Below, piece after piece: positions 11,071 through 64,000 of a stretch of 64,000 nt of DNA (the first letter of the stretch is position 1; every line of letters begins with the position of its first letter). The DNA lies in NCBI GenBank assembly GCA_018780035.1, contig JADMKE010000003.1:82753-146752 (forward strand). Direction: 5' to 3'. The translations under genes and the position numbers were made by a program. The notes beneath the pieces were generated by a model that was given only the letters and a program-made list of their open reading frames with translations, had not been told where the DNA came from and did not search any database. This DNA is from Candidatus Sericytochromatia bacterium (lineage in GTDB: Bacteria > Cyanobacteriota > Sericytochromatia > UBA7694).

Positions 11071-11290
11071 ACCCTATTCTAATCTGAACTGAGAGCGGGC
11101 GGTGAAAATGGGGGAAAAGTTGCTAATTAAATATAACAAATTAAGTTAAAAAAATTTTCCTGCTTTAAGTTTTTTTTAAAAAACGCCACAACCCTTTTGC
11201 ATACTTGTTTTGCTTGTTTACGTGTTTCAAAAATAGTCTTTGGTTTTTAAATTAACTCCCCCACTGGACCCATAAATGCAGAAAAATCAC

Positions 11291-11321
11291 TTGCAATTTA
11301 CTTAACAAATTTTGTTATAAT
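11291..11321 (+). promoter_or_regulatory. Putative sigma70-type promoter for the 11399 gene: TTGCAA ... TGtTATAAT (extended -10)
   Basis: TTGCAA at 11291-11296, TG at 11313-11314 and TATAAT at 11316-11321, in an AT-rich divergent intergenic region. The 19-nt spacer is long, but the extended -10 compensates. AGGAG RBS at 11383-11387. Confidence 0.4.
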
Positions 11322-11398
11322 ATTACTCAAGTGGTGGATGGCTGGGTGTAAATCAAATCAAGTCCATTCAAGACAAAAAAAAACAGGAGTTCCAACCT

Positions 11399-49927: not shown

Positions 49928-51589
49928 TTGCCTCATCCCTCCCCTGTTTTGGGCACCATCATTGAAGGTTCACTTTCGGGCGGCTTAAAAATGCGGCTGG
50001 CAGCTGATCAAAACGTGGAAGATATTCGCGTGGGTCAATTTGTCGTGGTCGAAGGCCAACTCAAACGCTTTTTCTGCCTGATTACCGATGTCGCCCTGAG
50101 CACCTCCAACCCCCAGATTTTGCTCAATCCCCCTGCCCAGGGCGATTTTTTGGCTCAGATTTTGCAGGGCACAGGCACCTTGGGCACGGTTTCTCTCCAG
50201 CCGATGTTGATGCTCGAAAAAAATGCCTCCCTTGCGGATGCCAACGCCGATCCCGAAGAGGAATTGCGGCCCGTCAAAACCATTCCCTCCCATTTTGCCC
50301 CCGTGAAGGTTGCCTCAGAGCAAGATTTTGCCACCGTCTTTGGCCAAGAAGACGATCCCCACAAGGCCCGTTTTTTTATTGGCATGCCCCTGGATATGGA
50401 CGTGCCACTCTGTCTCGATCTCGACCGTTTGGTCGAGCGCAGCAACGCGATTTTTGGCAAATCTGGCACAGGCAAGTCTTTTTTGACCCGGCTTGTGCTC
50501 TCAGGGATTATCAAAAAACAGGTGGCCGTCAATCTGATCTTTGATATGCACAACGAATATGGTTGGCAGGCCCTGAGCGAAAACAAAGGCGAAAAAGTGG
50601 TCAAAGGCCTCAAACAGCTCTTTGGCCGGGATGTGGTGGTCTTTACCCTCGATCTCAAATCCTCGCGCCAGCGCGGAATCAAAGACGCCCAAGAACTCAG
50701 CATTCCCCTGCGCCAGATCCAGATCGAAGACCTGGCCCTGATCAAACACGAACTCAATCTCTCCGAGGCCAGCATTGAATCGGCGATGATTCTCGAAGAG
50801 GCCCTGGGCCGCAATTGGCTCAAACAATTTTTGCAGATGTCGGCCAACGAGATCGAGGACTTTGTCAGCAGCGCCAAGGGCCACAGCGGTGCGCTCAAGG
50901 CCCTGCAGCGCAAATTGATCAAGGTCACGAACCTGAGTTATATCAAAGATGAGGGCAGCGGCGACGCGATTCAGATGATTCTGAAATACCTCGAAAGTGG
51001 CAAACATGTCGTGCTCGAATTTGGCGGCCACAACAGCCTGCTCAGTTATATGCTGGCCACCAATATTATCACCCGCCGGATTCACCAGAGTTATGTCGAA
51101 AAATCCGACATCTACAATGCCGACCCGCTCAACAACGTCAAACCCCGCCAATTGGTGATCACCATCGAAGAGGCGCATAAATTTTTGTCCCCGGCCATTG
51201 CCCGGCAGACGATCTTTGGCACCATCGCCCGTGAGATGCGCAAATATTCCGTCACCCTGTTGATTGTCGATCAGCGCCCGTCGAGTATCGACAGCGAAAT
51301 TCTCAGCCAGGTCGGCACGCGTATCACGGCCCTGCTCAACGACGACAAAGACATTGACGCGGTTTTTACGGGCGTGAGTGGCAGCCAGAGTTTGCGCACC
51401 GTGCTCTCGCAGCTCGATCCCAAACAGCAGGCCCTGATCTTGGGCTATGCCGTGCCCATGCCGGTGGTGATCCGCACCCGCCCCTACAATACCGACTTTT
51501 ACAAAGCCGTGGGCGACAAAAGTGCAGAAAAGCCCGAAGAACTCGAAGTTCGCGCCCAGAGCAATATTGTTCGGCTGTTTCCCGGCTAA
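49928..51589 (+). CDS. HerA-family (DUF87) P-loop ATPase with N-terminal HAS-barrel-like domain
   Basis: 553 aa. N-terminal GTIIEGSL ... VGQFVVVEG barrel-like segment, Walker A GKSGTGKSF, Walker B LVITIEEAHKFL, and LLIVDQRPS. Confidence 0.65.
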   Translation: MPHPSPVLGTIIEGSLSGGLKMRLAADQNVEDIRVGQFVVVEGQLKRFFCLITDVALSTSNPQILLNPPAQGDFLAQILQGTGTLGTVSLQPMLMLEKNASLADANADPEEELRPVKTIPSHFAPVKVASEQDFATVFGQEDDPHKARFFIGMPLDMDVPLCLDLDRLVERSNAIFGKSGTGKSFLTRLVLSGIIKKQVAVNLIFDMHNEYGWQALSENKGEKVVKGLKQLFGRDVVVFTLDLKSSRQRGIKDAQELSIPLRQIQIEDLALIKHELNLSEASIESAMILEEALGRNWLKQFLQMSANEIEDFVSSAKGHSGALKALQRKLIKVTNLSYIKDEGSGDAIQMILKYLESGKHVVLEFGGHNSLLSYMLATNIITRRIHQSYVEKSDIYNADPLNNVKPRQLVITIEEAHKFLSPAIARQTIFGTIAREMRKYSVTLLIVDQRPSSIDSEILSQVGTRITALLNDDKDIDAVFTGVSGSQSLRTVLSQLDPKQQALILGYAVPMPVVIRTRPYNTDFYKAVGDKSAEKPEELEVRAQSNIVRLFPG

Positions 51590-51646
51590 GCGGAATGTGT
51601 AATAATATCTTTACGATTCGCTGAAAGCTAAGTGTTGAGGTAGTGC

Positions 51647-52867
51647 ATGGATATAGATATCGAGAATCTGAACCACGAAGAAGCCCTGAAATTTGTTGAA
51701 CGCTTTCAGGTATTATTGGAAATCAACAACAGCATTAACTCCTCAATGGAGTTGGATGTCCTGCTTCGCACCATTATTGACGTGGCCAAAATCGTGATGA
51801 ATGCCGAAGCCTCTTCGCTGGCGCTCTTGGACAAAAGCACCCAAGAACTGGTTTTTCACTTTGCCCAGGGCGAAGCGGGCAAAGTGGTTGAGAGTATGCG
51901 CATTCCCGTGGGAACAGGCATTGCTGGCCATGTAGCTGAAACGGGCCAGCCTTTGATTGTACCCGATGTGACTCAAGACGAGCGCTTTTACAAAGGCGTG
52001 GACGAAGAAAGCAAATTCCAAACCCGCTCGATTATCTGTGTGCCCATGTCCCGTTCGGGGGATCAGGTGATGGGTATTTTGCAGGTGCTCAATAAAATCG
52101 AAGGCACCTTCGACGAAACCGACCTGATTCTCTTTTCGTCTTTGGCCAATATTGCCGCGATCGCAATTGAGAACTCTCAGCTCTATACCTTGCTGCAACA
52201 AACCCTCGACAAGCTCAAAGAAGACAATACCCGCCTGAATATGATTCTCGGCAAGCTCGAACAATCCGAGGCCGAGGTCCGCGAAATGAAAACCCTGATG
52301 CAAGGAGACGACACAGGCGCCGTGCGCGGCAGCCTCTCGGTGATTATCCCACCCAATATTCTGCAAATGCTCGGCAACGACGCCAAAACAGGTTCAGTCA
52401 CAATCAACAGCAAACCCCAATCGGGCAAAATTTATCTGCAGCGGGGCGAGGTGCATTATGCCGAAACATCTGGCTCCCCGCCCTTTTTAACCGGCCCCAT
52501 GGCCGCTTATGAGATGATGGGCTGGACCGAAGGCACCTTTTCGTTTAACGAAAACGAAGAGCCCCCCGGCCGCACCATCCAGGTCTCCGTCATGCATCTG
52601 ATTATCGAAGGCATGCGCCGCAGCGACGAAACCAAAGTCATGTTGGAGATGTTCCCCGATGATTCGGTGGTGATTAAATTGGCAGAGGCCCCCCCCGAGA
52701 ATATCGATCCCCACGCAGAAGCCTGTTTCTGGGGCCTGACCACCGGCCAGACCTTGGGCGATGTGCGCCGCCGTGTGCCTGTGGACAGCCACACCTTCTA
52801 CAGTGCAGTCAAAGACTTCAGCGAAAACCGATTGATTCAAATCGCGCAGGTGGTTGAAGAAGCCTAA
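51647..52867 (+). CDS. GAF domain protein with C-terminal DUF4388-like domain
   Basis: 406 aa. GAF region LLRTIIDVAKIVMNAEASSLALLD ... IAGHVAETGQPLIVPDV ... ICVPM. C-terminal GSVTINSKPQSGKIYLQRGEVHYAE ... MMGWTEGTFSF. Confidence 0.6.
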   Translation: MDIDIENLNHEEALKFVERFQVLLEINNSINSSMELDVLLRTIIDVAKIVMNAEASSLALLDKSTQELVFHFAQGEAGKVVESMRIPVGTGIAGHVAETGQPLIVPDVTQDERFYKGVDEESKFQTRSIICVPMSRSGDQVMGILQVLNKIEGTFDETDLILFSSLANIAAIAIENSQLYTLLQQTLDKLKEDNTRLNMILGKLEQSEAEVREMKTLMQGDDTGAVRGSLSVIIPPNILQMLGNDAKTGSVTINSKPQSGKIYLQRGEVHYAETSGSPPFLTGPMAAYEMMGWTEGTFSFNENEEPPGRTIQVSVMHLIIEGMRRSDETKVMLEMFPDDSVVIKLAEAPPENIDPHAEACFWGLTTGQTLGDVRRRVPVDSHTFYSAVKDFSENRLIQIAQVVEEA

Positions 52868-52916
52868 TTGCGAACTTAAGTCTATTGATTGTAACGCAAA
52901 GTGAGGATTCCTTAAA

Positions 52917-53309
52917 ATGTATCAAATTGAACGTAAAGACTATGGCTATTATTTGACCTTTGGCGATCTGATCAAGGCCGATGAGATGAATCGATGGGTG
53001 TCTGAATCCAAACAGGAAATGCTGAGTGCCCCCTCCCAATTTGGGGTGTTTGTAGATATGCGTACTTTGGCACCCTTGCCTGAAGATGCTCAAGTGGCGA
53101 TGCAAGAAGGCCAAAAACTCTACAAATCCAAAGGTATGACGCGCTCCGTGGTGATTGTCAACAGCAAGATTACCAAAATGCAATTTATGCGCATAGCCAA
53201 AGAAACCGGGATTTATGAGTGGGAACGGTATATTGATGCCACCGCTGTCCCAAATTGGGAAGACGTGGGCGTGGCGTGGCTGACCGAGGCAACAGATCCT
53301 GACCTCTGA
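52917..53309 (+). CDS. Small hypothetical protein
   Basis: 130 aa. Good spacing after the upstream gene. No recognisable family (possibly STAS-like). Confidence 0.4.
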   Translation: MYQIERKDYGYYLTFGDLIKADEMNRWVSESKQEMLSAPSQFGVFVDMRTLAPLPEDAQVAMQEGQKLYKSKGMTRSVVIVNSKITKMQFMRIAKETGIYEWERYIDATAVPNWEDVGVAWLTEATDPDL

Positions 53310-53356
53310 TTGCCAGACTTTCGCTAAAAAAGGCTTTTTTCCACTTAGGGGAACAA

Positions 53357-55351
53357 GTGCCACTCTCGCTCCGTCTTGCAAAGGATCACTTTGCCAGAGG
53401 GGATGCTTTGATGGGAATGCAGCAATCGCAAACCGCTCAAATCGGGTTCTGCTGTCTGGTTTTTTGCCTCTTGGGCTGTGAACCCCGGTCGCAATCCCCG
53501 CTCTCGCTCTCTTCCCCCTCGCCGCTCATTCCCACACCTGATTCAATGTCTTCCTCGCCACATGCCCGCCTCAATCTCAGCCTGGAACCCATTGCCGCAG
53601 CCTTTTATGAGCTGCGCTGGAATACCCAACCCGAGGCCTACAACTACCGCCTCTGGCTCGATGACAAGCCTTTTAAAGACAATTTGGTCTTGCCGCGCGA
53701 GGTCTTGGATTTAACCGGGTATGCCCTGGGCAGCCACACCCTCAAACTGGAGAGTATCAACGCCAGTAAACAAGTGACTGCGGTGGGAGAACTCGCTTTT
53801 GAGATCCAGGCTTCGATGCCAAGCCCAACCGCGTACCCCACCCCCAGCTCTCATCCCAACGCCTATCGGCCGGTATTGTTGCCCACCCCGACGCCCCGGC
53901 CACAGGTCAGCCCCACCCCTGTGGTGGTGGTTTTGCCGAGTCCTTATCAAACGCCTGCTTGTGATCTCGCTTATTATTGTGACTTCGAAAGAACCACCTT
54001 CAATGGCAAGGTTTTTGATGATAACTACTTACCTTTGAAGGGGGTAACTGTTATAGCCAAGTCTCTCAGCAGCAATGTGCCCTTTAATGCTGAAACAGTA
54101 ACGACTGACGGGACTTATACTTTCAACAGAGCACCTTCTGGCGTTCAGGTTGAAATCACCGCATCCAAAGCGGGCTTTGCTACCCGCAAACGCGTCGAGG
54201 TGCTCAGGTCCAACAAACAGGGAGATCCCAATGCCAACCGCTTTGACTTTGGCACCGATGGGGGCGCAGCGACCTTCTCTGCCGTTTACAACGCGCTGAG
54301 CGACAAACCCGAAGTGGTGATGGTCACTCCGGCCCGCAATGGCTCCGGTGTAGCGTTCAACACCAGCTTCGTGCTGAAATTCTCTGAACCCATGGTTAAA
54401 CAAACCGTGGAAAACAGTTTGATGATCTCCGCATTTAACAGGCGAAAAATCACAGTGGATGCCGACAATCGGCGTGTGGCAGGGGGGACCGATACGGTGA
54501 TTGGCAACGGAACGATTTTCACTAATTTCTTGCCGGGCAATAGCACACCAATTTGGGATGCAACGGCCTTTGAGAGCAGTTGGAACAGCGATGCCACCGA
54601 AATCACCCTGCGCTTCAAAGAGGGCAAAAACCTACCCAGCGACAGAGACAGCAATTTGGTGCCCGATTACAACGTGTCCTTTCATGGTTTGGATATCAAC
54701 AAACGTTTTATTCAAGACGCCAGTGGGGTGATCCGCAACGATAAATTTTTTAAACTGACCGACGGGGATTTTGAAGAGTCTTACAAATTCTCGATCAAAA
54801 GCGACGAAGTCAAACCCACGCTGACGCAGATGACTCCCGATCCCCAGTCGCCACACGGGGGCGGGTTTATTCTGCACTACAGCGAGCCCATGATACTCGA
54901 AACCCTGGGCGTGAACATTGCGGGCGGTATGAGCGACACCCCCACAGCTTTTATACATGCCCCCGCTGGATATCCAGGGGCTGTGTATAGCACAGCTGCC
55001 AAAGCGGCTGAAAACTACCATTTGCTCGTCAAAGACGCGCTGGGGCAAACCCGGTTTGAAGGCAGTTGGGCCCAACTCGGTGGGCGGGTGGAGTATCTCA
55101 GCCGCGATGCCAGCCGCAAAAGTGTCAGGCTGACATTGCCCCCTTTTGCCGGAACAGCAACAGATCCCGACGTTCAAACCCGTTTGACTCAGCTTCTAAG
55201 CCGTGGCCACACATTGAGCGAAGGGGTGGTGCCGAGCTTGTTTGAAATTGGAGAGCGTCTCACCTTTCGGGTCGAAGCAGGGGTGATGGACCCCGCAGGC
55301 AATACTGTGGATAGTGCCCGCAATAACGTGGGCCTGACCTTAAATGGGTGA
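53357..55351 (+). CDS. Paralog A (1 of 5): lipoprotein with FN3-like + CarboxypepD_reg-like + Big_5 (SbsA) Ig-like domains and an uncharacterised conserved C-terminal domain
   Basis: 664 aa from the ORF track. The more likely start is ATG 53411 (MGMQQSQ...), which has an AGAGGGGA RBS. Lipobox LLGC. Motifs YNYRLWLDDKPF, TFNGKVFDDNYLPLKGVTVIAKS, LSDKPEVVMVTPARNGSGV ... LKFSEPM, HFKLTDGDFEESYKF. Confidence 0.7.
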   Translation: MPLSLRLAKDHFARGDALMGMQQSQTAQIGFCCLVFCLLGCEPRSQSPLSLSSPSPLIPTPDSMSSSPHARLNLSLEPIAAAFYELRWNTQPEAYNYRLWLDDKPFKDNLVLPREVLDLTGYALGSHTLKLESINASKQVTAVGELAFEIQASMPSPTAYPTPSSHPNAYRPVLLPTPTPRPQVSPTPVVVVLPSPYQTPACDLAYYCDFERTTFNGKVFDDNYLPLKGVTVIAKSLSSNVPFNAETVTTDGTYTFNRAPSGVQVEITASKAGFATRKRVEVLRSNKQGDPNANRFDFGTDGGAATFSAVYNALSDKPEVVMVTPARNGSGVAFNTSFVLKFSEPMVKQTVENSLMISAFNRRKITVDADNRRVAGGTDTVIGNGTIFTNFLPGNSTPIWDATAFESSWNSDATEITLRFKEGKNLPSDRDSNLVPDYNVSFHGLDINKRFIQDASGVIRNDKFFKLTDGDFEESYKFSIKSDEVKPTLTQMTPDPQSPHGGGFILHYSEPMILETLGVNIAGGMSDTPTAFIHAPAGYPGAVYSTAAKAAENYHLLVKDALGQTRFEGSWAQLGGRVEYLSRDASRKSVRLTLPPFAGTATDPDVQTRLTQLLSRGHTLSEGVVPSLFEIGERLTFRVEAGVMDPAGNTVDSARNNVGLTLNG

Positions 55352-55505
55352 TCGTGCATTAAAAGACATCTTTTACAGCCATTTTCACAGACAGGGCTCA
55401 GCTCTGTCGCTTGGGGGTATTTTGCTTTTGGTGCTGGGGGGAGTCAGCGCCTGCAATTCAACTCCTTTGAGCCCCGCAGCCAGTCCCAGTCCGATGCAAA
55501 CACTC
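54521..55505 (+). repeat. Direct repeat copy 1 (~1 kb; near-identical to 58573-59575)
   Basis: A long tract identical to copy 2 apart from a few substitutions and one 9-bp indel. It spans the 3' half of paralog A and the 5' end of paralog B. Confidence 0.85.
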
Positions 55506-57350
55506 GCGTCGGCTATGCCTTCTCTCATCGCTACATCCGCTCCAAATGCGAGCCCATCTCCGTTGTCGACAACTCAGCCCAGTGCTGATTCCTTTTATAA
55601 ACCAACCAATGGTAATTTGATGATTCAAAAGTCAGAAATTCAGCAAGGCAAAGTCTACGATGGCAATGGCCAACTACTTGATGATGTGAACATTCAAATC
55701 CGCTCATTAAATCCATCGGTCCCTTTCCATGTTAAAACTAAAGCAGTCAGGGGAGAGTATTCTTTTGACAAGGCACCGATGGGAATCTCACTCGAAATTA
55801 AAGCTGAAAAACAGGGCTATGCCAGCCGCAGAAAGGTAGAATTAATTAGCTGGTATTCACCCAGCAATGTAGGGAAATTTGATTTTGGTACAGAATTTCC
55901 TTTGCTTTGGAGCAATGGATCTGCTTTTTACTTTCGTTTAAATGATCAACCCGAAGTCATTCAAGTTACCCCTTCCCGCAATGGCTCTGGTGTATCTCCC
56001 AAAACGGATTTTACCTTGCTTTTTTCTGAACCGATGGACCGACAGTCAGTGGAAGATAATTTTACAATTCGCAGTTTCAATTCTCGGCTGCTCACAGTTG
56101 ATGGCGGCCCGCTGCCTTACGGTCGCATCGATGTTCCAATCCCTCACACTGTCAAAGGCAATGGCATCATTGCCAGCAATTATCAAACAGGCCAAGGCAC
56201 CCCGATCTATGAACGCTCAGCTTTTGATATCAGCTGGAATGCCGACAATACCCAAGTGACCTTTTCCTTTAAAGATGGCAAAGCCCTGCCCACTGATAGA
56301 GACCAGGATTCAGTCCCTGATTACAATATCTCCTTTAAAAACTTTAGAGATGAAAACCGCACAATCAGAGACAAATCAGGCATTGAGCGCCAAGAGAAAC
56401 ACTTCAAACTGACCGATGGCGACTTTGAAGAATCGTATAAATTCTCAATCTTGCCCGATTTAATTTCACCCACCCTTGAATCCGCGAAGTGGACAGGGGT
56501 AACACCCCAGACAGCCTCCTTATTACTCCAATACAGCGAGCCGATGATGCTCAAGACCCACAGCCTGAAAATCGCAGGCGGTATGAAAGATAACCCAGCT
56601 TCTTGTAAACAGGCCCCAGCCGGGTATCCCGATGCACAAAGCTGCATTTCAGCCCGCGCGTCCCAAAATTATTCAGTTAAAGTCACAGGGGCCAATGGTA
56701 TCCCTCGCTTTGAAGGGACTTTGTCTCAATTGGGGGGCAAAGCCGAATATGACAGCCAAGACCCCACACAAAAAACAGTCAAGCTCTCATTGGCTCCTTA
56801 CCTTGGCCTAAACCGAACCCATTATTATGCAGCAGATCAGATTCTACTCACAGATTCAGGCCGTTATCACACGGGCAATTTTCAGGACAACTTCAGCTTT
56901 TTATTGGACAAAATCGACGGAACACAAACCAAGGTGGAAGTCAGTTTGAGTGCCAATTTAAGCTCAGGAGAAAGTCTCAGCCAAGATTTGATGGTTAAAC
57001 TGAATCAGAAGCTCGGTGAAATAGGCAGCTCAGCCCGATTTACCAGTACTTTTATCGCGGATCCCGGCTTTCCTCCCGGTTTAAATGCACCGGGCCGAAT
57101 CAGTCTCAAACTTTTGGATGCCCAATCTGATCATCTGGGGTTTTCTGCCCTGCCCACGCCAGCAGCCAATAGCAGTGAAGATGTCTTGCCCAATTTTCAA
57201 GTGGGGGGCCGTTCTCTGCAAACAGGCATGTTTTTGTTTGACTTTCAAGCTGGAGACCAACTTGAAATTACAGCTGGAGCAAGTATCGTGGATCCTGCAG
57301 GCAACCCCCTTGCCGCAAATTCTCCGTCTCTGAGTATTGATGTGCCATGA
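55344..57350 (+). CDS. Paralog B (2 of 5): lipoprotein of the same family (no FN3-like segment)
   Basis: 668 aa. Start overlaps the paralog A stop by 8 nt. Lipobox GVSAC. Motifs LNDQPEVIQVTPSRNGSGV ... FSEPMDRQSVEDNFTIRSF, AFDISWNADNTQVTF, EKHFKLTDGDFEESYKF, LLQYSEPMMLKTHSLKIAGGM, CKQAPAGYPDA. Confidence 0.7.
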   Translation: MGDRALKDIFYSHFHRQGSALSLGGILLLVLGGVSACNSTPLSPAASPSPMQTLASAMPSLIATSAPNASPSPLSTTQPSADSFYKPTNGNLMIQKSEIQQGKVYDGNGQLLDDVNIQIRSLNPSVPFHVKTKAVRGEYSFDKAPMGISLEIKAEKQGYASRRKVELISWYSPSNVGKFDFGTEFPLLWSNGSAFYFRLNDQPEVIQVTPSRNGSGVSPKTDFTLLFSEPMDRQSVEDNFTIRSFNSRLLTVDGGPLPYGRIDVPIPHTVKGNGIIASNYQTGQGTPIYERSAFDISWNADNTQVTFSFKDGKALPTDRDQDSVPDYNISFKNFRDENRTIRDKSGIERQEKHFKLTDGDFEESYKFSILPDLISPTLESAKWTGVTPQTASLLLQYSEPMMLKTHSLKIAGGMKDNPASCKQAPAGYPDAQSCISARASQNYSVKVTGANGIPRFEGTLSQLGGKAEYDSQDPTQKTVKLSLAPYLGLNRTHYYAADQILLTDSGRYHTGNFQDNFSFLLDKIDGTQTKVEVSLSANLSSGESLSQDLMVKLNQKLGEIGSSARFTSTFIADPGFPPGLNAPGRISLKLLDAQSDHLGFSALPTPAANSSEDVLPNFQVGGRSLQTGMFLFDFQAGDQLEITAGASIVDPAGNPLAANSPSLSIDVP

Positions 57351-57459
57351 ACTGGCTAAATAACTCGATTTTTTTCTGAACACGACAACAATCGCCTGAT
57401 CATACCCAGATTTTTGCCAATATGGGAACATCCACTGCCATAGCAGCGTCTAGAGAAAA

Positions 57460-59403
57460 ATGGCTGCGCTGAAGGGGGAAAGTTTGATGAGAATCAGGGC
57501 CTTTTTACTTACTTTGCTCAGTGTCAGTGTTGGTCTGGTGGGCTGTGAAACCCGTTCTCAAAAACCACTTGCATTCCCCTCGCCGACGATGTCCATGCCT
57601 GTTTCAACGCTTTTGGCCCCTCTCGTTCACATCAATCTCAGTATGCTCCCAATTAAAGCCGCTTTTTTTGAGTTGCGCTGGAATTCACAACCCGAGGCCG
57701 ATCGTTATCGCCTCTGGCTCGATAGCAAGCCCTTTAAAGACAATTTGGTTTTGCCGCGCGAGATATTGGATTTAACCGGCTATGCCCTGGGCAGCCACAC
57801 CCTTAAATTGGAAAGTATCAACGCCAGAGGTCAGGTGACTGCGGTGGGAGAACTCAGATTTGAGCTCCAAGCCCCTGGCCCCAGTCCGACAGTTTACCCT
57901 ACATCCAGTGCCGTTCCCAAAGCCTCTCCGGCTGTGGGGCCAACCTCACCACCCCAGCCGAAGGTCAGTCCCACACCTGTGGTGGTGGTTTTGCCAAGCC
58001 CCATACCCAATGATATCTGTGATGCTTGTTTCTCTGAAAAAACAACTTTTAATGGTTATGTTTATGATGATCAATTTATGCCCATGCCTGGTGTTACGAT
58101 CCAGGTCAAATCATTGATCAGCAATATCCAATTTGATATGCAAAAAACGACATCATCAAATGGCCAATTTTACTTTTCCAATGCACCAAGTGGCGTTCAC
58201 ATTGAAATAATTGCTTACAAAGCAGGATTTACTCCCCGCAAACGTGTTGAGTTTCTACATTCCAACAAAGAAGACAATCCCATTATAAATTGGTATAACT
58301 TTGGTACTGATGGTAGAGAACCCTTCAATTCTACTGGATATGATGCACTGAGCGACAAACCCGAAGTCACCACAATTACTCCATCTCGAAATAGCTCCGG
58401 TGTAGCGTTCAACACCAGCTTTGTGCTGAAATTCTCTGAACCCATGGCAAAACAAACCGTGGAAAAAAGTTTTATGATCTCCGCTTTTAACAGGCGGAAA
58501 CTCACGGTGGATGCCGACAATTTGCGTACTGCTGGCGGAGCCAATACTGTCATTGGTACTGGAAAGATCGCCACTAATTTCTTGCCGGGCAATAGCACAC
58601 CAATTTGGGATGCAACAGCCTTTGAGAGCAGTTGGAACAGCGATGCCACCGAAATCACCCTGCGCTTCAAAGAGGGCAAAAACCTACCCAGCGACAGAGA
58701 CAGCAATTTGGTGCCCGATTACAACGTGTCCTTTCATGGTTTGGATATCAACAAACGTTTTATTCAAGACGCCAGTGGGGTGATCCGCAACGATAAATTT
58801 TTTAAACTGACCGACGGGGATTTTGAAGAGTCTTACAAATTCTCGATCAAAAGCGACGAAGTCAAACCCACGCTGACGCAGATGACTCCCGATCCCCAGT
58901 CGCCACACGGGGGCGGGTTTATTCTGCACTACAGCGAGCCCATGATACTCGAAACCCTGGGCGTGAACATTGCGGGCGGTATGAGCGACACCCCCACAGC
59001 TTTTATACATGCCCCCGCTGGATATCCAGGGGCTGTGTATAGCACAGCTGCCAAAGCGGCTGAAAACTACCATTTGCTCGTCAAAGACGCGCTGGGGCAA
59101 ACCCGGTTTGAAGGCAGTTGGGCCCAACTCGGTGGGCGGGTGGAGTATCTCAGCCGCGATGCCAGCCGCAAAAGTGTCAGGCTGACTTTGCCCCCTTTTG
59201 CCTCGGCCGCAACAGATCCCGACGTTCAAACCCGTTTGACTCAGCTTTTAAGCCGTGGCCACACATTGACCGAAGGGGTGGTGCCGAGCTTGTTTGAAAT
59301 TGGAGAGCGTCTCACTTTTCGGGTCGAAGCAGATGTGATGGACCCCGCAGGCAATACTGTGGATAGTGCCCGCAACAACGTGGTCCTAACTTTAAATGGG
59401 TGA
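57460..59403 (+). CDS. Paralog A' (3 of 5): duplicate of paralog A; the C-terminal ~270 aa are essentially identical
   Basis: 647 aa from the ORF track. The likely start is ATG 57487 (MRIRAFLL...), with RBS AGGGGGA 8 nt upstream. Lipobox LVGC. FN3-like YRLWLDSKPF. The C-terminal half is nucleotide-identical to 54521-55350. Confidence 0.7.
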   Translation: MAALKGESLMRIRAFLLTLLSVSVGLVGCETRSQKPLAFPSPTMSMPVSTLLAPLVHINLSMLPIKAAFFELRWNSQPEADRYRLWLDSKPFKDNLVLPREILDLTGYALGSHTLKLESINARGQVTAVGELRFELQAPGPSPTVYPTSSAVPKASPAVGPTSPPQPKVSPTPVVVVLPSPIPNDICDACFSEKTTFNGYVYDDQFMPMPGVTIQVKSLISNIQFDMQKTTSSNGQFYFSNAPSGVHIEIIAYKAGFTPRKRVEFLHSNKEDNPIINWYNFGTDGREPFNSTGYDALSDKPEVTTITPSRNSSGVAFNTSFVLKFSEPMAKQTVEKSFMISAFNRRKLTVDADNLRTAGGANTVIGTGKIATNFLPGNSTPIWDATAFESSWNSDATEITLRFKEGKNLPSDRDSNLVPDYNVSFHGLDINKRFIQDASGVIRNDKFFKLTDGDFEESYKFSIKSDEVKPTLTQMTPDPQSPHGGGFILHYSEPMILETLGVNIAGGMSDTPTAFIHAPAGYPGAVYSTAAKAAENYHLLVKDALGQTRFEGSWAQLGGRVEYLSRDASRKSVRLTLPPFASAATDPDVQTRLTQLLSRGHTLTEGVVPSLFEIGERLTFRVEADVMDPAGNTVDSARNNVVLTLNG

Positions 59404-59575
59404 TCGTGCATTGAAAGACATCTTTTACAGCCATTACAGCCATTTTCACAGACAGCGCTCAGCTCTGTCGCTTGGGGGTATTTTGCTTTTGGGGCTGGGG
59501 GGAGTCAGCGGCTGCAATTCAGCTCCTTTGAGCCCCGCAGCCAGTCCCAGTCCGATGCAAACACTCCTCCCTTCG
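58573..59575 (+). repeat. Direct repeat copy 2 (~1 kb; near-identical to 54521-55505)
   Basis: Offset 4052 bp from copy 1. Contains the YSH 9-bp insertion (cattacagc) relative to copy 1. Confidence 0.85.
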
Positions 59576-61030
59576 ACTAAGCCAACAATGGCAGTGCAAC
59601 CCAATGCCACTCCTTCTCCCACATTGGTTCCAATAGCTACTCCCTATGCAAGCCCTACACCGAATCCTGTCGAACCCTCTCCCCTTATGCCCAGTGCCTC
59701 ACCGATTTTGTATAGCACTGAAGGGATAGAAAAATCTGCTTTCTCTGGACAGATTTTTGATGATACACACAAACCACTGAATGATGTTCAGATCCGTCTT
59801 CGCTCTCTAAATGAGCTGGTCCCTTTTGGTGCCGAGACGGTGGCTTTAAACGGTCAATATGTTTTCAACAACATCCCTTCAGGAATCCTGGTTGAAATCA
59901 CAGCCTCCAAACCCGGTTTTGCCACGCGCAGACGGATGGAAGTTGCAAAATCGAGCTTTAGAGGGCCAGATGTCAATAGTCGCTACGACTTTGGTACCAA
60001 TGGTGGTTCAGCAATGTACTCTGCTGCTTATAACGCTCTGACCGACAAACCCGAAGTTATCCGAGTGACTCCCGCCCGCAATGGAGCGGGGATTTCACCG
60101 AAAACAGATTTCAACTTGTTCTTTTCAGAACCCATGGATCGCAGATCTGTCGAAGAGAGTTTCACTGTTCGCAGTTTTAAAAACAACAAATTATCTGTGG
60201 ATAATACCATGAATAAATTCCCTTCTGAACAAGGATTTAAGTATACTTTGAACGGGAAAGATGCAAATACCCATTTTGGATCGCCTCATTTTTACGAAAT
60301 AAGCAACGGCACCCCCATTTACGATTCATCCGCCTTTAATATCACCTGGAATGCGGATGATACCCAAGTGACCTTTCAATTCAAACCAGGTTTGTCCTTG
60401 CCGACAGATAAAACACCTGAACTCGCCCCCCATTACCAAGTGGCATTTAAACCTTTCACAAATAAAAACCTCACCCTGCGCGATAAAACAGGCGTTGAGC
60501 GCCAGGAGAAACATTTTAAATTAACCGATGGCGATTTTGAGGAAGCATACCAGTTTCAAGTCAAAGAAGATCTGCAAGCGCCCAGCCTGCAAGCGGCCCG
60601 GTGGGCTGGATTTTATGGGCAAATGCCCACACTATTGCTCCAATACAGCGAGCCGATGTTGCTTAAAACTTACAGTTTAAATATTGCCGGGGGAATGGCC
60701 GATGAGCCGCCCTCTTGCAAACAGGCCCCGGCAGGATTTCCGGGGGCGAAAGCCTGTACTGCCAGCAAAGCAGCTGAAAATTATCAGGTGAAAGTCAGAG
60801 CCCCCAGTGGCTCACTCAGCTATCAAGGGACTTGGGCAAATTTGGGAGGAGAAGCCAGTTATGCGTCTTGGGATGCCAGTTTTAGAACAATAGTTTTGAG
60901 TACACAAACACCCCAACCCACTTTTATCTCAGGAGCCCAAGTTGAAATCACCGCCAATCCTGAAGTTGTTGAACCAGCGGGCAATCCAATTTCAAACAGC
61001 CAAACGCCCTTGACTGTATTGATACCATGA
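59396..61030 (+). CDS. Paralog B' (4 of 5): duplicate-type of paralog B (shared MGDRALKDIFYSH start), diverged after the signal peptide
   Basis: 544 aa. Overlaps the A' stop by 8 nt. Lipobox VSGC. Motifs LTDKPEVIRVTPARNGAGI, AFNITWNADDTQVTF, EKHFKLTDGDFEEAYQF, CKQAPAGFPGA. Confidence 0.7.
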   Translation: MGDRALKDIFYSHYSHFHRQRSALSLGGILLLGLGGVSGCNSAPLSPAASPSPMQTLLPSTKPTMAVQPNATPSPTLVPIATPYASPTPNPVEPSPLMPSASPILYSTEGIEKSAFSGQIFDDTHKPLNDVQIRLRSLNELVPFGAETVALNGQYVFNNIPSGILVEITASKPGFATRRRMEVAKSSFRGPDVNSRYDFGTNGGSAMYSAAYNALTDKPEVIRVTPARNGAGISPKTDFNLFFSEPMDRRSVEESFTVRSFKNNKLSVDNTMNKFPSEQGFKYTLNGKDANTHFGSPHFYEISNGTPIYDSSAFNITWNADDTQVTFQFKPGLSLPTDKTPELAPHYQVAFKPFTNKNLTLRDKTGVERQEKHFKLTDGDFEEAYQFQVKEDLQAPSLQAARWAGFYGQMPTLLLQYSEPMLLKTYSLNIAGGMADEPPSCKQAPAGFPGAKACTASKAAENYQVKVRAPSGSLSYQGTWANLGGEASYASWDASFRTIVLSTQTPQPTFISGAQVEITANPEVVEPAGNPISNSQTPLTVLIP

Positions 61031-62832
61031 GCCAAGAAAATCACAGGACAGTCTCAAGTCAGTTTTTGCAGGCTCTGATTCTGGCCGGTCTTTCTGCCTG
61101 TGAACCTCCGGCCATGCATCCCTCAGAACCCCCTGCCAGCCAGAACAGTCAAGCAACGGCTACTTCGGCTCCCATGGCATTCGAAAACAGAACTGCAAGT
61201 ATTGTGGTTGAAAGAGAGGAAGGCAATCGCTATAAACTAAGCTGGCCAACGATTCCAGGGGCCGCTAATTACAAGCTCTTTCTCGATGGGGAATTGCTGA
61301 AAGATCAATTAAAAACCAGCCAATATCAAATGGATATTTCTCAATTGAGTTGGGGGCTCCATAAATTGGGGTATGAATCTTTCGATCGGAATCATCGACT
61401 CATAGGCTATTTGGCCCAAGAGTGGGATCTGCGCCCGCTATTACCAGAACCCATTAAGTCTATAAAACCTTGCCCAGAGAGCAAAATGATTGATCTTTGG
61501 ACATATCAGGACTGTTACGATGGAATTACTTATACAGGTTCAATAGAAAAAAATATCATTTTTGGAAAGATCTATTCTGATTCTCAACGTTTATTAGCTG
61601 GAACAAACGTTCTTGTTCGGTTAATTAATAGTCGTTTTCAGTTTTCTAAAGAGACCATATCGACTGATGGGATTTTTCGTTTAGTCGATATACCAGTAGG
61701 TTATCAAGTTGAAATAATTGCTTCAAAGACAGGTTATACAACCAGAAGAAGAATAGAAATTGTAAAATCACCTGGCAAAAGTGATCCTAATGCAAATCGA
61801 TATGACTTTGGTGCAGATCTGGCAACAGCCAGCGGTTTCTCTGCCTCATACAATACACTCAGCGACAAACCCGAAGTAACCATGGCCCTGCCCAGTCGCA
61901 GTCAAAGAAATGTGGCTCCCAATAACGCTTTTGAGCTGACTTTTTCTGAGCCCATGGATCATCAGGGGGTTGAAAACAATTTTGCGATTCGCAGTTTTGT
62001 GTCGGGAAAAATCTCAGTCGATGCTCAGTCTGGAGGGGATACCTTTAATGGCACAGTCCCAATCCAGAGAGAATACCAGCCAGACGCATTCAAGACCGGT
62101 GAAACACTTCCGAGATACGGCAATCTCGCTCAATACCAAACAGGCACGCCCATCTTCGACAGCTCTGCCTTTGATATCTCCTGGAATGCCGACGATACGC
62201 AGGTTACATTTGCCTTTAAACCCGGCAAAGCCCTGCCCACAGACAAAGATCTCGCCCGCTTGCCAATCTATACCCTGGCTTTCGATTCATTTGGCAATCA
62301 ACAGCGCGATATTCGTGACAAAAGCGGCGTGGCCCGCAGTGAGAAACACTTTAAGCTCACCGATGGCGATTTTGAAGAGGCGCTGGCCTTTGAGGTGCAG
62401 GCCGACACCACCCCACCGCGTTTGGAGAACGTGGCACAATTAGAATTGCCCATGCGTGCTTTGGCCTTTGCTTTGACATTTAGCGAACCGATGCTGCTCA
62501 AAACCCACAGCCTGGATATCGCAGGCGGCATGGCTGATACGCTTGAATCTTGCAAACAGGCTCCAGCGGCTTATCCAGGTGCAAAAGTCTGCACCGCTTC
62601 ACGGGCCGGGCAAAACTATACCCTCACTGTCAAAGCCGCCGATGGGCGCATCAAATTCCAGGGCCCTTGGTCTCTGTTGGGTGGAGAAGCCCATTACGAT
62701 GCAGGTGATCCCAGCTTCACACGGGTGATCTTAAGTGCCTCAACTCTGCCTTTTTTGCAAGCAACTGATGATCACTACCACGTTCAGGCCCTTTCCCCGC
62801 TTTCGGACCCAGCGGGCAATTTTCTGGATTGA
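61027..62832 (+). CDS. Paralog A'' (5 of 5): the same family, with a divergent FN3-like N-terminal domain
   Basis: 601 aa. ATGA overlap with the preceding gene. Lipobox LSAC. Motifs YKLSWPTIPGAANYKLFLDG, LSDKPEVTMALPSRSQ, AFDISWNADDTQVTF, EKHFKLTDGDFEEALAF, CKQAPAAYPGA. Confidence 0.7.
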   Translation: MSQENHRTVSSQFLQALILAGLSACEPPAMHPSEPPASQNSQATATSAPMAFENRTASIVVEREEGNRYKLSWPTIPGAANYKLFLDGELLKDQLKTSQYQMDISQLSWGLHKLGYESFDRNHRLIGYLAQEWDLRPLLPEPIKSIKPCPESKMIDLWTYQDCYDGITYTGSIEKNIIFGKIYSDSQRLLAGTNVLVRLINSRFQFSKETISTDGIFRLVDIPVGYQVEIIASKTGYTTRRRIEIVKSPGKSDPNANRYDFGADLATASGFSASYNTLSDKPEVTMALPSRSQRNVAPNNAFELTFSEPMDHQGVENNFAIRSFVSGKISVDAQSGGDTFNGTVPIQREYQPDAFKTGETLPRYGNLAQYQTGTPIFDSSAFDISWNADDTQVTFAFKPGKALPTDKDLARLPIYTLAFDSFGNQQRDIRDKSGVARSEKHFKLTDGDFEEALAFEVQADTTPPRLENVAQLELPMRALAFALTFSEPMLLKTHSLDIAGGMADTLESCKQAPAAYPGAKVCTASRAGQNYTLTVKAADGRIKFQGPWSLLGGEAHYDAGDPSFTRVILSASTLPFLQATDDHYHVQALSPLSDPAGNFLD

Positions 62833-62887
62833 ACACCTGTGAAGGGTTGGTGTGTCTTTGAATCAAACCACCCCGGAGGAAGCCCCC

Positions 62888-64000
62888 ATGAACCGCAAAT
62901 CCATCTCTTTCAAAGCCCCGTTTAAAGCCAGTTTGAGTTTGAGCCTGACCCTCTTGCTGCTCCTGAGCAGCTGTTATGCCAACCAAGATAGCTCACAGAT
63001 CGCCGACAAGAGCCAAACAGCGCCCCCCAAAGTCGACCAACAAAACACCGAAGAAACCGATGACGAAAAAAAACTGATGAACCTTCAGGCCCCCGCTCCC
63101 CCCCGCAAACTCAAATCCGAAGCCCTGGCCAATAAACCCGTCACCACCGGCATGGTAACGGGTGGCAAGGTGAACGAAAGCACAGTTCTGAGACAGGCCC
63201 CCAAAGAGCAGATCCCCCAAGATCAGACGCCAACAGATAAAGAATTTAACACCGAAGGCTACGACAAAATTGCAGAGAATCCCTTTCTTGAGGCCTTAAA
63301 AAACCCACTTTCGACCTTTTCAATTGATGTAGATACCGCTGCTTACAGCAATGTGCGGCGCTTTATTCAACAGGGCAATTTGCCGCCCCAAGATGCCGTC
63401 AGAATCGAAGAGATGATCAATTATTTTGAATATAACTATCCCGATCCCCAGAGTCAGCACCCTTTTTCGCTGGTCACTGAAATCTCCGACTGCCCCTGGA
63501 ATACCAAACACAAACTTTTACATGTGGGCCTGCAGGCCAAACGCCTGAATCTCAAACAGACACCCCCCAATAATCTGGTCTTTTTGTTGGATGTCTCAGG
63601 TTCGATGGAAGACGATAACAAACTTCCCCTGCTGAAAAAATCCCTGCGCCTGCTGATCGACGAATTGCGGGAACAAGACAGCGTCTCGATCGTGGTCTAC
63701 GCGGGGGCTGCGGGCCAGGTTCTGCCCCCCACCAGTGGTGCCAACAAAGCCAAGATCATCGACGCGCTTGAGAATTTACAGGCCGGGGGCTCGACCGCAG
63801 GCTCAGAAGGAATTCAATTGGCCTACGAATTGGCACGCAAAAACTTCAAACAAAATGGCAATAACCGCGTCATTTTGGCCACCGATGGCGATTTTAACGT
63901 CGGTCCCTCCAGCGATGGCGAACTCGTGCGCATGATCGAAGAAAAACGCAAAGGCGGGGTCTTTTTAACCGTCTTGGGCTTTGGCATGGGCAATTACAAA
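62888..64000 (+). CDS. YfbK-like von Willebrand factor type A domain protein with signal peptide (3' end outside the window)
   Basis: No stop codon within the window. GGAGGA RBS at 62874-62879. Signal peptide; FSIDVDTAAYSNVRRFIQQGNLPPQDAVRIEEMINYF (YfbK N-domain-like); vWA MIDAS start VFLLDVSGSM ... SIVVYAG. Confidence 0.7.
   Translation, partial: MNRKSISFKAPFKASLSLSLTLLLLLSSCYANQDSSQIADKSQTAPPKVDQQNTEETDDEKKLMNLQAPAPPRKLKSEALANKPVTTGMVTGGKVNESTVLRQAPKEQIPQDQTPTDKEFNTEGYDKIAENPFLEALKNPLSTFSIDVDTAAYSNVRRFIQQGNLPPQDAVRIEEMINYFEYNYPDPQSQHPFSLVTEISDCPWNTKHKLLHVGLQAKRLNLKQTPPNNLVFLLDVSGSMEDDNKLPLLKKSLRLLIDELREQDSVSIVVYAGAAGQVLPPTSGANKAKIIDALENLQAGGSTAGSEGIQLAYELARKNFKQNGNNRVILATDGDFNVGPSSDGELVRMIEEKRKGGVFLTVLGFGMGNYK

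What the first reader, a model, noticed from the sequence alone, without database searches (positions are those of the whole stretch)
54521..59575. ~1 kb near-identical direct repeat 4.05 kb apart inside the paralog array, with mosaic identity upstream (gene-conversion signature)
54521-55505 and 58573-59575 are almost base-for-base identical, apart from a few substitutions and a 9-bp indel. Upstream, the two A-type genes are only ~75-90% identical, with a second high-identity island in the FN3-like region (around 53600 vs 57660). This mosaic pattern suggests recent gene conversion or segmental duplication, not ancient paralogy. The repeat is also a substrate for RecA-mediated deletion or amplification of a 4 kb A-B unit, giving possible copy-number (phase-like) variation. 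For assembly QC: a repeat this long may be collapsed or mis-joined by short reads.
Basis: seen in the sequence. Interest (0 to 1): 0.6.

Follow-up and report, generated by a model that had tools for sequence, protein, structure and literature searches.

The report
Recent gene conversion between tandem lipoprotein paralogs
Two neighbouring copies of a surface-lipoprotein gene in an uncultured Sericytochromatia bacterium recently overwrote about 1 kb of one another by recombination; this is a well-known process, seen here in a gene array that is reshuffled unusually often within and between related genomes.

Summary
The repeat is real. 54520-55505 and 58572-59566 are 97.0% identical, with a 569-bp perfect core. 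The sequence upstream is 69% identical and the sequence downstream 47%. The repeat covers the last 277 codons of two A-type lipoprotein genes, the overlapping stop/start junction, and the first ~54 codons (signal peptide and lipobox) of the B-type genes that follow.

Evidence for gene conversion:
- Synonymous divergence falls from 0.5-0.8 to 0.00 inside the tract.
- A1 and A2 are sisters (100% bootstrap) in the tract, but A1 groups with its orthologue upstream.
- A run test gives p<1/2000.
- Sister genomes have no intra-array exact repeat longer than 76 bp.

This fits recent non-reciprocal gene conversion, probably A1 into A2. It does not fit a recent duplication or purifying selection.

Five syntenic loci from related Sericytochromatia/Blackallbacteria assemblies carry from 4 to at least 7 genes in the array. 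They show chimeric fusion genes at conserved blocks (A1::A4 in L007, B1::X in this window), swapped A-B partnerships, and patches 98-99% identical across lineages whose flanks differ by 13-18%.

The process is ordinary; the family is uncharacterised. Read-level confirmation of the assembly was not possible. High-frequency "phase-like" switching was not tested.

The parts
54520..55505 (+). Conversion tract, copy 1: last 277 codons of A1, the A1/B1 overlapping stop-start junction (ATGGGTGA), and the first ~54 codons of B1 (signal peptide, lipobox, start of linker)
   Evidence: 97.0% to copy 2; only 5 amino-acid differences in the A part
58572..59566 (+). Conversion tract, copy 2: last 277 codons of A2, the A2/B2 junction, and the first ~57 codons of B2
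54566..55134 (+). 569-bp perfectly identical core (= 58618-59186), the most recent event
   Evidence: pS = 0.00 for A1 aa 413-572
55135..55505 (+). 3' shoulder of the tract (92.4% to 59187-59566). The differences are polymorphisms shared with paralogs in other genomes, so this is a patchwork of older or other-donor exchanges, not decay after conversion
53417..55351 (+). A1 gene (MBT9544149.1, 644 aa; the mechanical ORF starts at GTG 53357). Lipoprotein built from an FN3-like domain, a Pro-rich linker, a CarboxypepD_reg-like domain, Big_5, and a C-terminal beta-sandwich region
55344..57350 (+). B1 gene (668 aa lipoprotein). Its last ~8 codons and the downstream spacer are of X type, so it is a B1::X fusion
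57487..59403 (+). A2 gene (MBT9544151.1, 638 aa; ORF from 57460). Its 5' half has no relative above 67% aa identity anywhere searched. Its 3' half matches A1
59396..61030 (+). B2 gene (544 aa lipoprotein), a mosaic of segments best matched by L001.g5, L007.g2, L005.g6 and L005.g2
61027..62832 (+). C gene (601 aa lipoprotein), the last member of the array. 61340-61800 is 98-99% identical to L003.g5
53640..53790 (+). Conserved island in the FN3-like domain (86.8% to 57701-57851). It is conserved among all A-type genes and is the crossover point of the A1::A4 chimera in L007
53836..54302 (+). Hypervariable cassette of A1 (linker plus CarboxypepD_reg-like domain), 63.5% identical to the A2 cassette at 57897-58354, which has low GC (0.41-0.45)
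57296..57460 (+). B1::X fusion junction at the conserved DPAGNP-coding block, followed by an X-type 3' end and the spacer that precedes the second A gene in L001 and L005. This is the scar of a deletion of gene X
   Evidence: (window at 57260)
59425..59444 (+). 9-bp tandem duplication (TTACAGCCA x2.2), the indel between the copies. It adds YSH to the n-region of the B2 signal peptide and is unique to this genome

Best explanation
The repeat is the footprint of a recent intragenomic, non-reciprocal homologous recombination event (ectopic gene conversion). It occurred between two tandem paralogs, A1 and A2, of a lipoprotein family so far found mainly in Sericytochromatia-type assemblies.

About 1 kb was copied from one A-B junction region onto the other, most probably from A1 onto A2. 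The copied stretch is the 3' 830 bp of an A gene, the translationally coupled stop/start overlap, and the first ~160 bp of the following B gene. Crossovers resolved in conserved sequence blocks: on the left at the start of the conserved 'TPIWDATAFE' strand after a variable loop of the Big_5 domain, and on the right just after the lipobox and linker start of B.

The 615-bp, 99.8% identical part is the latest event. The 92% shoulder on its 3' side is a patchwork from earlier exchanges.

This is one episode in a locus that evolves by constant recombination. Conserved blocks flank hypervariable, low-GC cassettes (the linker plus the CarboxypepD_reg-like domain, and a Big_5 loop). Those blocks act as homology arms for gene conversion, for unequal-crossover deletions that create fusion genes, and for import of cassettes from other lineages. 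The likely outcome is diversification of a cell-surface protein repertoire.

Shown here: the tract, its synonymous identity, the tree incongruence, the mosaicism and the fusion genes.

Inferred: RecA-type homologous recombination as the mechanism, the A1-to-A2 direction, surface exposure of the proteins, and diversifying selection as the cause.
For: Tract geometry and identity.

Synonymous divergence: pS between A1 and A2 is 0.5-0.8 over aa 1-330, 0.22-0.36 over aa 333-412, 0.00 over aa 413-572, and about 0.1 to the end. DNA-level homogenisation explains this; protein constraint does not.

Trees: neighbour-joining gives W_A1+L005_g1 96.5% bootstrap in 53836-54302, with W_A2 on an isolated branch, and W_A1+W_A2 100% in 54520-55134.

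Run test: 178 concordant polymorphic sites, the longest of 36 pairs; 0 of 2000 permutations reached it.

Sister arrays: the same A-type paralog region is 89.5% identical in L001 and 83.5% in L005. The longest exact intra-array repeat is 67-76 bp there, against 569 bp here.

Direction:
- The tract is 93% identical to L005_g1 and 91% to L001_g1, about the flank-level divergence of 95% and 91%.
- The positional counterparts of A2 in L005 and L007 (A4 type) carry a different sequence type in 54544-54780: 57-73% to A1, but 98-100% to each other.

Locus-wide recombination:
- 120-bp painting shows the best donor changing every few hundred bp.
- The SD of identity is 7-8 in the array against 2.6-4.3 in the flank.
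- L007_g1 is an A1(5')::A4(3') chimera, and W B1 is a B1::X fusion.
- The B1 orthologue follows A1 in this window and L001 but follows A4 in L005.

Protein nature:
- All five genes have lipoboxes.
- Big_5 scores above the Pfam gathering threshold.
- The AF2 model (pLDDT 84) is a string of beta-sandwich domains. Fold matches are only to FN3/Ig strings, the transthyretin-like domain of carboxypeptidase D, S-layer proteins and pilins.
Against: No reads were available. The exact identity of the core, and even the copy number, rest on a single MAG assembly.

The donor cannot be proven because A2 has no orthologue elsewhere.

The permutation test assumes equal rates across sites. Almost all A-type pairs are significant under it, so it measures mosaicism in general.

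Surface exposure and selective benefit are inferred only from domain types and the lipobox.

No evidence bears on the frequency of the events.
Confidence: 0.83

Rival explanations
1. Assembly or polishing artefact. The two copies are similar but not identical in the real genome, or belong to co-assembled strains. Repeat resolution, bubble popping or consensus polishing with multi-mapped reads then homogenised about 600 bp or mis-built the array.
For: The source is a MAG. A 569-bp exact repeat exceeds short-read k-mer lengths. The related records are SPAdes or MEGAHIT contigs (titles). The window's own contig is not in the indexed assemblies, so no independent assembly of it could be inspected.
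Against: Both copies lie in one 406-kb contig with distinct flanks on each side.

The assembler kept 20 substitutions and a 9-bp duplication apart in the 3' shoulder, so the copies were being distinguished.

Each right-hand junction is corroborated by independent assemblies: tract to B1 in L001 and L005, tract to B2 in L001 and L007.

The A1 5' half joined to the tract is corroborated by L005_g1 and L001_g1.

A linear path that uses all segments admits only the assembled order (inference).

Even if the core were homogenised by polishing, the copies must already have been nearly identical.
Confidence: 0.07
2. Inter-genomic homologous recombination. The 3' half of A2 (or A1) was replaced by DNA imported from a closely related strain's A-type gene, not copied from the resident paralog.
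For: Inter-lineage imports clearly occur in this array. Gene C 61340-61800 is 98-99% identical to L003, whose flanks are 82-87% identical. A2 57740-57860 is 98% identical to L007_g1.
Against: The resident paralog is the best match by far: 100% over 569 bp, against at most 98% in any 120-bp window for every external sequence. An external donor would have to be identical to the resident copy.
Confidence: 0.05
3. Recent tandem (segmental) duplication of the A-B unit followed by rapid divergence of everything except the junction region.
For: The A-B / A-B layout with 4.05-kb periodicity.
Against: Inside the unit, identity is 63-69% upstream and 47% downstream of the tract, with saturated pS of 0.5-0.8.

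B1 and B2 each have closer orthologues in other genomes (94% and 87% aa) than they are to each other, so the duplication predates the split of these lineages.
Confidence: 0.02
4. Ancient paralogy, with the 3' half kept identical by strong purifying selection on the protein or on an embedded DNA/RNA element.
For: The C-terminal half is the more conserved part of the family in all genomes.
Against: There are zero synonymous differences over 160 codons. Orthologues in other genomes show pS 0.1-0.4 in the same codons, and the same region differs by 10-17% between paralogs in sister genomes.
Confidence: 0.01

Closest known systems
Helicobacter pylori bab (babA/babB/babC) outer-membrane adhesin paralogs
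   Same: Full-length paralogs exchange segments by intragenomic gene conversion and produce chimeric genes. The 5' and 3' regions are homologous and the middle is diverse, and the genotype at each locus varies between strains (PMC4552749).
   Different: The bab genes sit at dispersed loci and encode beta-barrel OMPs of a host-restricted pathogen. Conversion there also moves CT-repeat phase-variation tracts. Here the genes are a tandem, same-strand array of beta-sandwich lipoproteins in an environmental, uncultured lineage, and no SSR tracts were found.
Treponema pallidum tpr gene family (tprGJ and tprGI chimeras)
   Same: [quoted passage not shown] Different chimeras and ORF deletions distinguish related lineages (PMC3656149).
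   Different: The tpr genes are dispersed and the variation is discussed in relation to host immunity. No inter-lineage low-GC cassette import has been described there. The tprK-type donor-cassette system has no counterpart here.
Chimeric genes formed by deletion between paralogs (experimental evolution of E. coli)
   Same: [quoted passage not shown] This matches the B1::X fusion in this window and the A1::A4 fusion in L007.
   Different: Those events were observed directly in the laboratory. Here they are inferred from comparison of metagenome-assembled loci.
Programmed antigenic-variation cassette systems (Neisseria pilE/pilS, Borrelia vlsE, Anaplasma msp2; reviewed in PMC4534519)
   Same: Segmental, non-reciprocal gene conversion generates mosaic surface proteins from a local repertoire of related sequences (own knowledge, plus the review listed).
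   Different: Those systems have one expression site plus silent, truncated cassettes. Here all five genes are complete, with start codons and lipoprotein signal peptides. No inverted repeats or specialised elements were seen. The frequency of events is unknown.

Membership tests
Ectopic gene conversion / concerted evolution between paralogs | A discrete tract of elevated identity between paralogs, bounded by diverged sequence on both sides | tested here: met
   97.0% identity (99.8% over 615 bp) against 68.8% upstream and 47.4% downstream
Ectopic gene conversion / concerted evolution between paralogs | Synonymous divergence collapses inside the tract, which excludes protein-level constraint | tested here: met
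   pS is 0.00 for aa 413-572 against 0.5-0.8 upstream. Orthologues show pS 0.1-0.4 in the same codons
Ectopic gene conversion / concerted evolution between paralogs | Phylogenetic incongruence: paralogs of one genome are sisters in the tract but group with their orthologues outside it | tested here: met
   NJ bootstrap is 100% for A1+A2 in the tract and 96.5% for A1+L005_g1 upstream
Ectopic gene conversion / concerted evolution between paralogs | Non-reciprocal transfer with an identifiable donor | tested here: inconclusive
   The tract matches A1 orthologues at background divergence, and the positional counterparts of A2 carry another sequence type. However, A2 has no orthologue that would show its pre-conversion state
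Ectopic gene conversion / concerted evolution between paralogs | Dependence on the homologous recombination machinery (RecA) | not testable with these tools
   Needs genetics. The organism is uncultured
Recent segmental duplication of the A-B unit | Uniformly high identity across the whole duplicated unit | tested here: not met
   47-69% identity outside the tract. B1 and B2 have closer orthologues elsewhere than they are to each other
Expression-site / silent-cassette antigenic variation | One expressed gene plus promoterless, truncated donor cassettes | tested here: not met
   All five genes are complete ORFs of 544-668 aa with ATG/GTG starts and lipobox signal peptides
Phase variation by simple-sequence repeats or DNA inversion | SSR tract in the promoter or 5' coding region, or inverted repeats flanking an invertible segment with a recombinase | tested here: not met
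   TRF finds only the 9-bp x2.2 duplication. There are 0 inverted repeats of at least 40 bp in 50000-64000
Diversity-generating retroelement target | Template/variable repeat pair near a reverse transcriptase | tested here: not met
   The 64 kb holds no other repeat apart from the array and a TIG-domain repeat. No RT was found among the ORFs scanned. The 0.0043 RVT_connect hit of the 130-aa ORF is below threshold. Not every ORF in the window was scanned
Pfam Big_5 (PF13205) domain proteins | Score at or above the gathering threshold of 23.6 bits | tested here: met
   A1 27.0, B1 31.3, A2 28.2, B2 25.2, C 28.0 bits
Pfam CarboxypepD_reg (PF13620) domain proteins | Score at or above the gathering threshold of 32.3 bits, or a matching transthyretin-like fold | tested here: inconclusive
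Bacterial lipoproteins | N-terminal signal peptide ending in a lipobox [LVI][ASTVI][GAS]C | tested here: met
   LLGC (A1), LVGC (A2), VSAC (B1), VSGC (B2) and LSAC (C), read from the translations. The consensus is from established knowledge. No dedicated predictor was run

The most novel reading that the evidence does not exclude
The array could be a dedicated combinatorial surface-variation locus of free-living Sericytochromatia. Conserved homology blocks would flank hypervariable, low-GC CarboxypepD_reg-like cassettes so that cassettes, whole C-terminal modules and A-B partnerships are shuffled at high frequency, both within a genome and between co-occurring lineages. Functionally this would resemble pathogen antigenic variation, but it would be driven by phage or grazer pressure in the environment. 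The 1-kb repeat would be a snapshot of that ongoing process.
Probability: 0.15. Interest if true: 0.6.

Novelty: new member of a known kind. Interest (0 to 1): 0.35.

Why it matters
This is a clean, well-bounded example of very recent gene conversion in a phylum-level lineage, the non-photosynthetic relatives of Cyanobacteria, that has no cultured members and almost no cell-surface biology.

The array has three features that mark it as a candidate for the main variable surface structure of these organisms, and so as a possible target of phages or predators:
- It varies in gene number and order among genomes whose flanking genes are 82-95% identical.
- It carries fusion genes at conserved blocks.
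- It exchanges cassettes across lineages.

Practically, the 569-bp exact repeat is a hazard for assembly and binning. It is also a natural marker for structural variants in population metagenomes.

The mechanism itself is textbook.

Tried and rejected
- Purifying selection as the cause of the identity: rejected on synonymous sites.
- Recent unit duplication: rejected on flank identity and orthologue relationships.
- Invertible or shufflon-type switching: no inverted repeats.
- SSR phase variation: only the 9-bp duplication was found.
- DGR: no template/variable repeat pair.
- Searching for an A2 orthologue to fix the direction of conversion: nothing above 67% aa identity among 5.8 billion proteins, and no exact match of an A2-specific 30-mer in JGI metagenome contigs.
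- Looking for an independent assembly of this very contig: the A1 and B1 products are not in the indexed assemblies, and the genome-contig scan returned no locus identical to the query, the best being 89% aa.
- Literature: nothing on these proteins in Sericytochromatia.

Full report
OBSERVATION

A self-comparison of 49-64 kb finds one long alignment, 53472-55505 vs 57539-59566, at 83.7% identity. A global alignment resolves it into very unequal parts:

| Segment | Partner | Identity |
|---|---|---|
| 53417-54519 (upstream) | 57487-58571 | 68.8% |
| 53836-54302 (hypervariable stretch) | 57897-58354 | 63.5% |
| 53640-53790 (island) | 57701-57851 | 86.8% |
| 54303-54519 (shoulder) | 58355-58571 | 81.1% |
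| 54520-55134 | 58572-59186 | 99.8% (1 mismatch) |
| 54566-55134 (core) | 58618-59186 | 100% (569-bp exact run) |
| 55135-55505 | 59187-59566 | 92.4% (20 substitutions plus one 9-bp indel) |
| 55506-57350 (downstream) | 59567-61030 | 47.4% |

Beyond 55505/59566 the alignment collapses. The whole tract, 54520-55505 vs 58572-59566, is 97.0% identical.

The indel is a 9-bp tandem duplication, TTACAGCCA x2.2, at 59425-59444. It is unique to this genome.

No other long repeat exists in the 64 kb. The only other hit is a 72% TIG-domain repeat at 40.9/41.4 kb.

The second copy ends at about 59566, and upstream identity is lower than the stated 75-90%.

WHAT THE SEQUENCE ENCODES

Five same-strand genes form the array:

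| Gene | Coordinates | Note |
|---|---|---|
| A1 | 53417-55351 | ORF from GTG 53357; MBT9544149.1 |
| B1 | 55344-57350 | |
| A2 | 57487-59403 | MBT9544151.1 |
| B2 | 59396-61030 | |
| C | 61027-62832 | |

The A/B pairs overlap by 8 nt (AATGGGTGA) and B2/C overlap by 4 nt. This suggests translational coupling, which is an inference.

All five proteins begin with a signal peptide that ends in a lipobox: LLGC, VSAC, LVGC, VSGC and LSAC.

Pfam finds Big_5 above threshold in all five, and CarboxypepD_reg just below threshold. NCBIfam has no family for A1, B1 or C.

An AlphaFold2 model of A1, built on a 54-sequence alignment (mean pLDDT 84.3), is a string of beta-sandwich domains:
- an FN3-like domain at aa 50-130;
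- a disordered Pro-rich linker at aa 135-179;
- a transthyretin/CarboxypepD_reg-like domain at aa 190-262;
- Big_5 at about aa 300-420, with a variable loop at about aa 340-377;
- a C-terminal region at aa 455-641.

The tract covers A1 ORF residues 388-664, from the conserved strand after the variable Big_5 loop to the C-terminus. It also covers the stop/start overlap and the first ~54 residues of B: the n-region, the lipobox and the start of the linker. Over the last 277 residues the two A proteins differ at only 5 positions.

ORGANISM AND RELATIVES

The closest database proteins are from 'Candidatus Sericytochromatia bacterium' MAGs, and the window belongs to a 406-kb contig.

Syntenic loci were retrieved from five other assemblies:
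- L001 and L005 are JGI metagenomes.
- L003 is GCA_050248915.1.
- L007 is GCA_051715345.1, 'Candidatus Blackallbacteria mt_P12'.
- L006 is a partial locus: its contig begins within the last ~350 bp of the GAF/PATAN gene and holds only two array genes.

L001, L003 and L007 share the upstream genes PFOR, a DHO_dh-like gene, a HerA-like DUF87 ATPase and a GAF+PATAN gene. The L005 contig starts within the DHO_dh-like gene.

Flank identity to the window is 95% for L005, 92.7% for L007, 91% for L001 and 82% for L003.

TESTS OF GENE CONVERSION

1. Synonymous sites. pS between A1 and A2 is 0.5-0.8 (saturated) over residues 1-330, 0.22-0.36 over 333-412, 0.00 over 413-572, and about 0.1 to the end. Orthologous comparisons in the same codons give pS 0.1-0.4. 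Purifying selection on the protein cannot produce this pattern.

2. Tree incongruence. In 53836-54302, W_A1 is sister to L005_g1 (96.5% bootstrap) and W_A2 sits on an isolated long branch. In 54520-55134, W_A1 and W_A2 are sisters with 100% support.

3. Run test. Among 1054 ungapped polymorphic columns of nine A-type genes, A1/A2 share a run of 178 concordant sites. This is the longest of all 36 pairs, and 0 of 2000 permutations reached it.

4. Baseline. In sister genomes the same paralog region is 89.5% (L001) and 83.5% (L005) identical. The longest exact intra-array repeat there is 67-76 bp, against 569 bp here.

A recent duplication of the whole A-B unit is excluded. B1 and B2 have closer orthologues elsewhere (94% and 87% aa) than they are to each other, and identity inside the unit is low outside the tract.

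DIRECTION AND HISTORY

The tract is 93% identical to L005_g1 and 91% to L001_g1, which matches flank-level divergence.

A2 sits where L001 and L005 have an 'A4-type' gene. The spacer and an X-type 3' remnant upstream of A2 align with the sequence upstream of L001_g4 and L005_g4.

In 54544-54780 the A4-type genes of L005 and L007 carry a different sequence type. It is 57-73% identical to A1, but 98-100% identical between the two of them.

A1 as donor and A2 as recipient is therefore the more likely reading. It cannot be proven, because the 5' half of A2 has no relative above 67% aa identity in 5.8 billion proteins. An A2-specific 30-mer is also absent from JGI metagenome contigs.

L001_g4 is A1-like in the same segment. 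This suggests an independent, older A1-to-second-A conversion in that lineage.

The differences in the 3' shoulder (55135-55461) are not new mutations. Nearly every variant is also present in paralogs of other genomes. The shoulder is therefore a patchwork of earlier or other-donor exchanges.

THE LOCUS AS A WHOLE

Painting the array in 120-bp windows against the other loci shows the best match changing every few hundred bp:
- B2 is best matched in turn by L001.g5, L007.g2, L005.g6 and L005.g2.
- Gene C 61340-61800 is 98-99% identical to L003.g5, although L003 flanks are only 82-87% identical.
- A2 57740-57860 is 98% identical to L007_g1.
- A2 57980-58340 matches nothing closely.

In the flank, the SD of identity is 2.6-4.3 and L003 is never the best match. 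In the array the SD is 7-8.

Hypervariable cassettes have low GC: 0.41 at 58200-58499 and 0.33 at 61500-61799. The conserved tract has GC 0.54-0.57.

Array content differs between genomes:
- this window has 5 genes;
- L007 has 4, followed by the same VWA gene;
- L001 and L005 have at least 7;
- L003 has at least 5.

Two fusion genes look like unequal-crossover deletion products:
- L007_g1 is A1-type for its first ~300 alignment columns and A4-type after column ~500, with the switch inside the conserved FN3 island.
- The window's B1 switches at the conserved DPAGNP-coding block to the 3' end of gene X of L001 and L005, then continues into the spacer that precedes the second A gene there. Gene X has been deleted.

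The B1 orthologue follows A1 in this window and L001 but follows the A4-type gene in L005. The A-3'/B-5' block has therefore also served as a crossover point.

They are between-lineage differences, however, not evidence of rapid switching.

COMPARISON WITH KNOWN SYSTEMS

The behaviour matches gene conversion and chimera formation in bacterial surface-protein paralog families:
- H. pylori bab genes (PMC4552749);
- T. pallidum tpr genes (PMC3656149);
- deletion-generated chimeric paralogs (PMC13626634).

It is not an expression-site/silent-cassette system, because all members are complete genes. It shows no inversion, SSR or DGR features.

No literature on these proteins in Sericytochromatia was found.

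CAVEATS

The sequence is from a MAG and reads were not available. The assembled order is the only linear path that uses all segments, and three of the four junctions are corroborated by other assemblies. Even so, homogenisation of the core by polishing cannot be excluded.

The mechanism (RecA-type homologous recombination), surface exposure and the selective driver are all inferred.

VERDICT

This is a real and very recent gene-conversion tract in a recombination-prone tandem array of uncharacterised lipoproteins. It is a new member of a known kind, of moderate-to-low general interest (0.35).

Noticed in passing
window 52868-53432: A ~560-bp segment between the GAF/PATAN gene and A1 is specific to this genome. 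It holds a 130-aa ORF (52917-53309) with no Pfam or NCBIfam family, has GC 0.44, and has a promoter-like site at 52889-52918. The syntenic loci L001, L003, L005 and L007 have only about 130-290 bp here and lack the ORF.
   Followed up: partly
window 61340-61800 (gene C) vs L003 17645-18249: This stretch is 98-99% identical to a genome whose flanking genes are only 82-87% identical, and its GC is only 0.33-0.43. It looks like a recent exchange of the linker/CarboxypepD_reg-like cassette between lineages. The match is cut off by the end of the L003 contig.
   Followed up: partly
window 57740-58340 (A2 5' half): A patchwork: 57740-57860 is 98% identical to L007_g1, 57860-57980 is 92% identical to L006_g1, and 57980-58340 has no close relative anywhere searched, with low GC (0.41-0.45).
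   Followed up: partly
window 54632-55177 (-) and 58684-59229 (-): Two identical-length 181-aa antisense ORFs lie inside the two tract copies. They are almost certainly mechanical by-products of the repeat, not genes.
   Followed up: no
window 37739-38464, 43325-45076, 51647-52867 and 49928-51589: Three PATAN/DUF4388-domain proteins (one with a receiver domain, one with GAF) and a HerA-like HAS-barrel/DUF87 ATPase lie upstream of the array. The response-regulator/PATAN, HerA-like and GAF/PATAN genes are conserved next to the array in the syntenic loci whose contigs reach that far. Any functional link to the array is unknown.
   Followed up: no
L001 2235-5814: The PFOR gene is split into two overlapping ORFs in L001 but is intact in the window, L003 and L007. 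This is either a frameshift or an assembly error in that metagenome contig.
   Followed up: no
L001 g1 vs g4 (10817-12107 vs 16609-17896): L001 has its own, older homogenised A-type 3' region, 89.5% identical overall, with pS 0.04 in a 40-codon window. L001_g4 carries A1-type sequence where L005_g4 and L007_g1 carry a distinct type, which suggests recurrent conversion in the same direction.
   Followed up: partly
window 39440-43147 (-), internal repeat 40932-41104 / 41415-41590: A large TIG/NHL-repeat protein (1235 aa) has a 72% internal DNA repeat that corresponds to tandem TIG domains. It is conserved at the edge of the syntenic loci.
   Followed up: no
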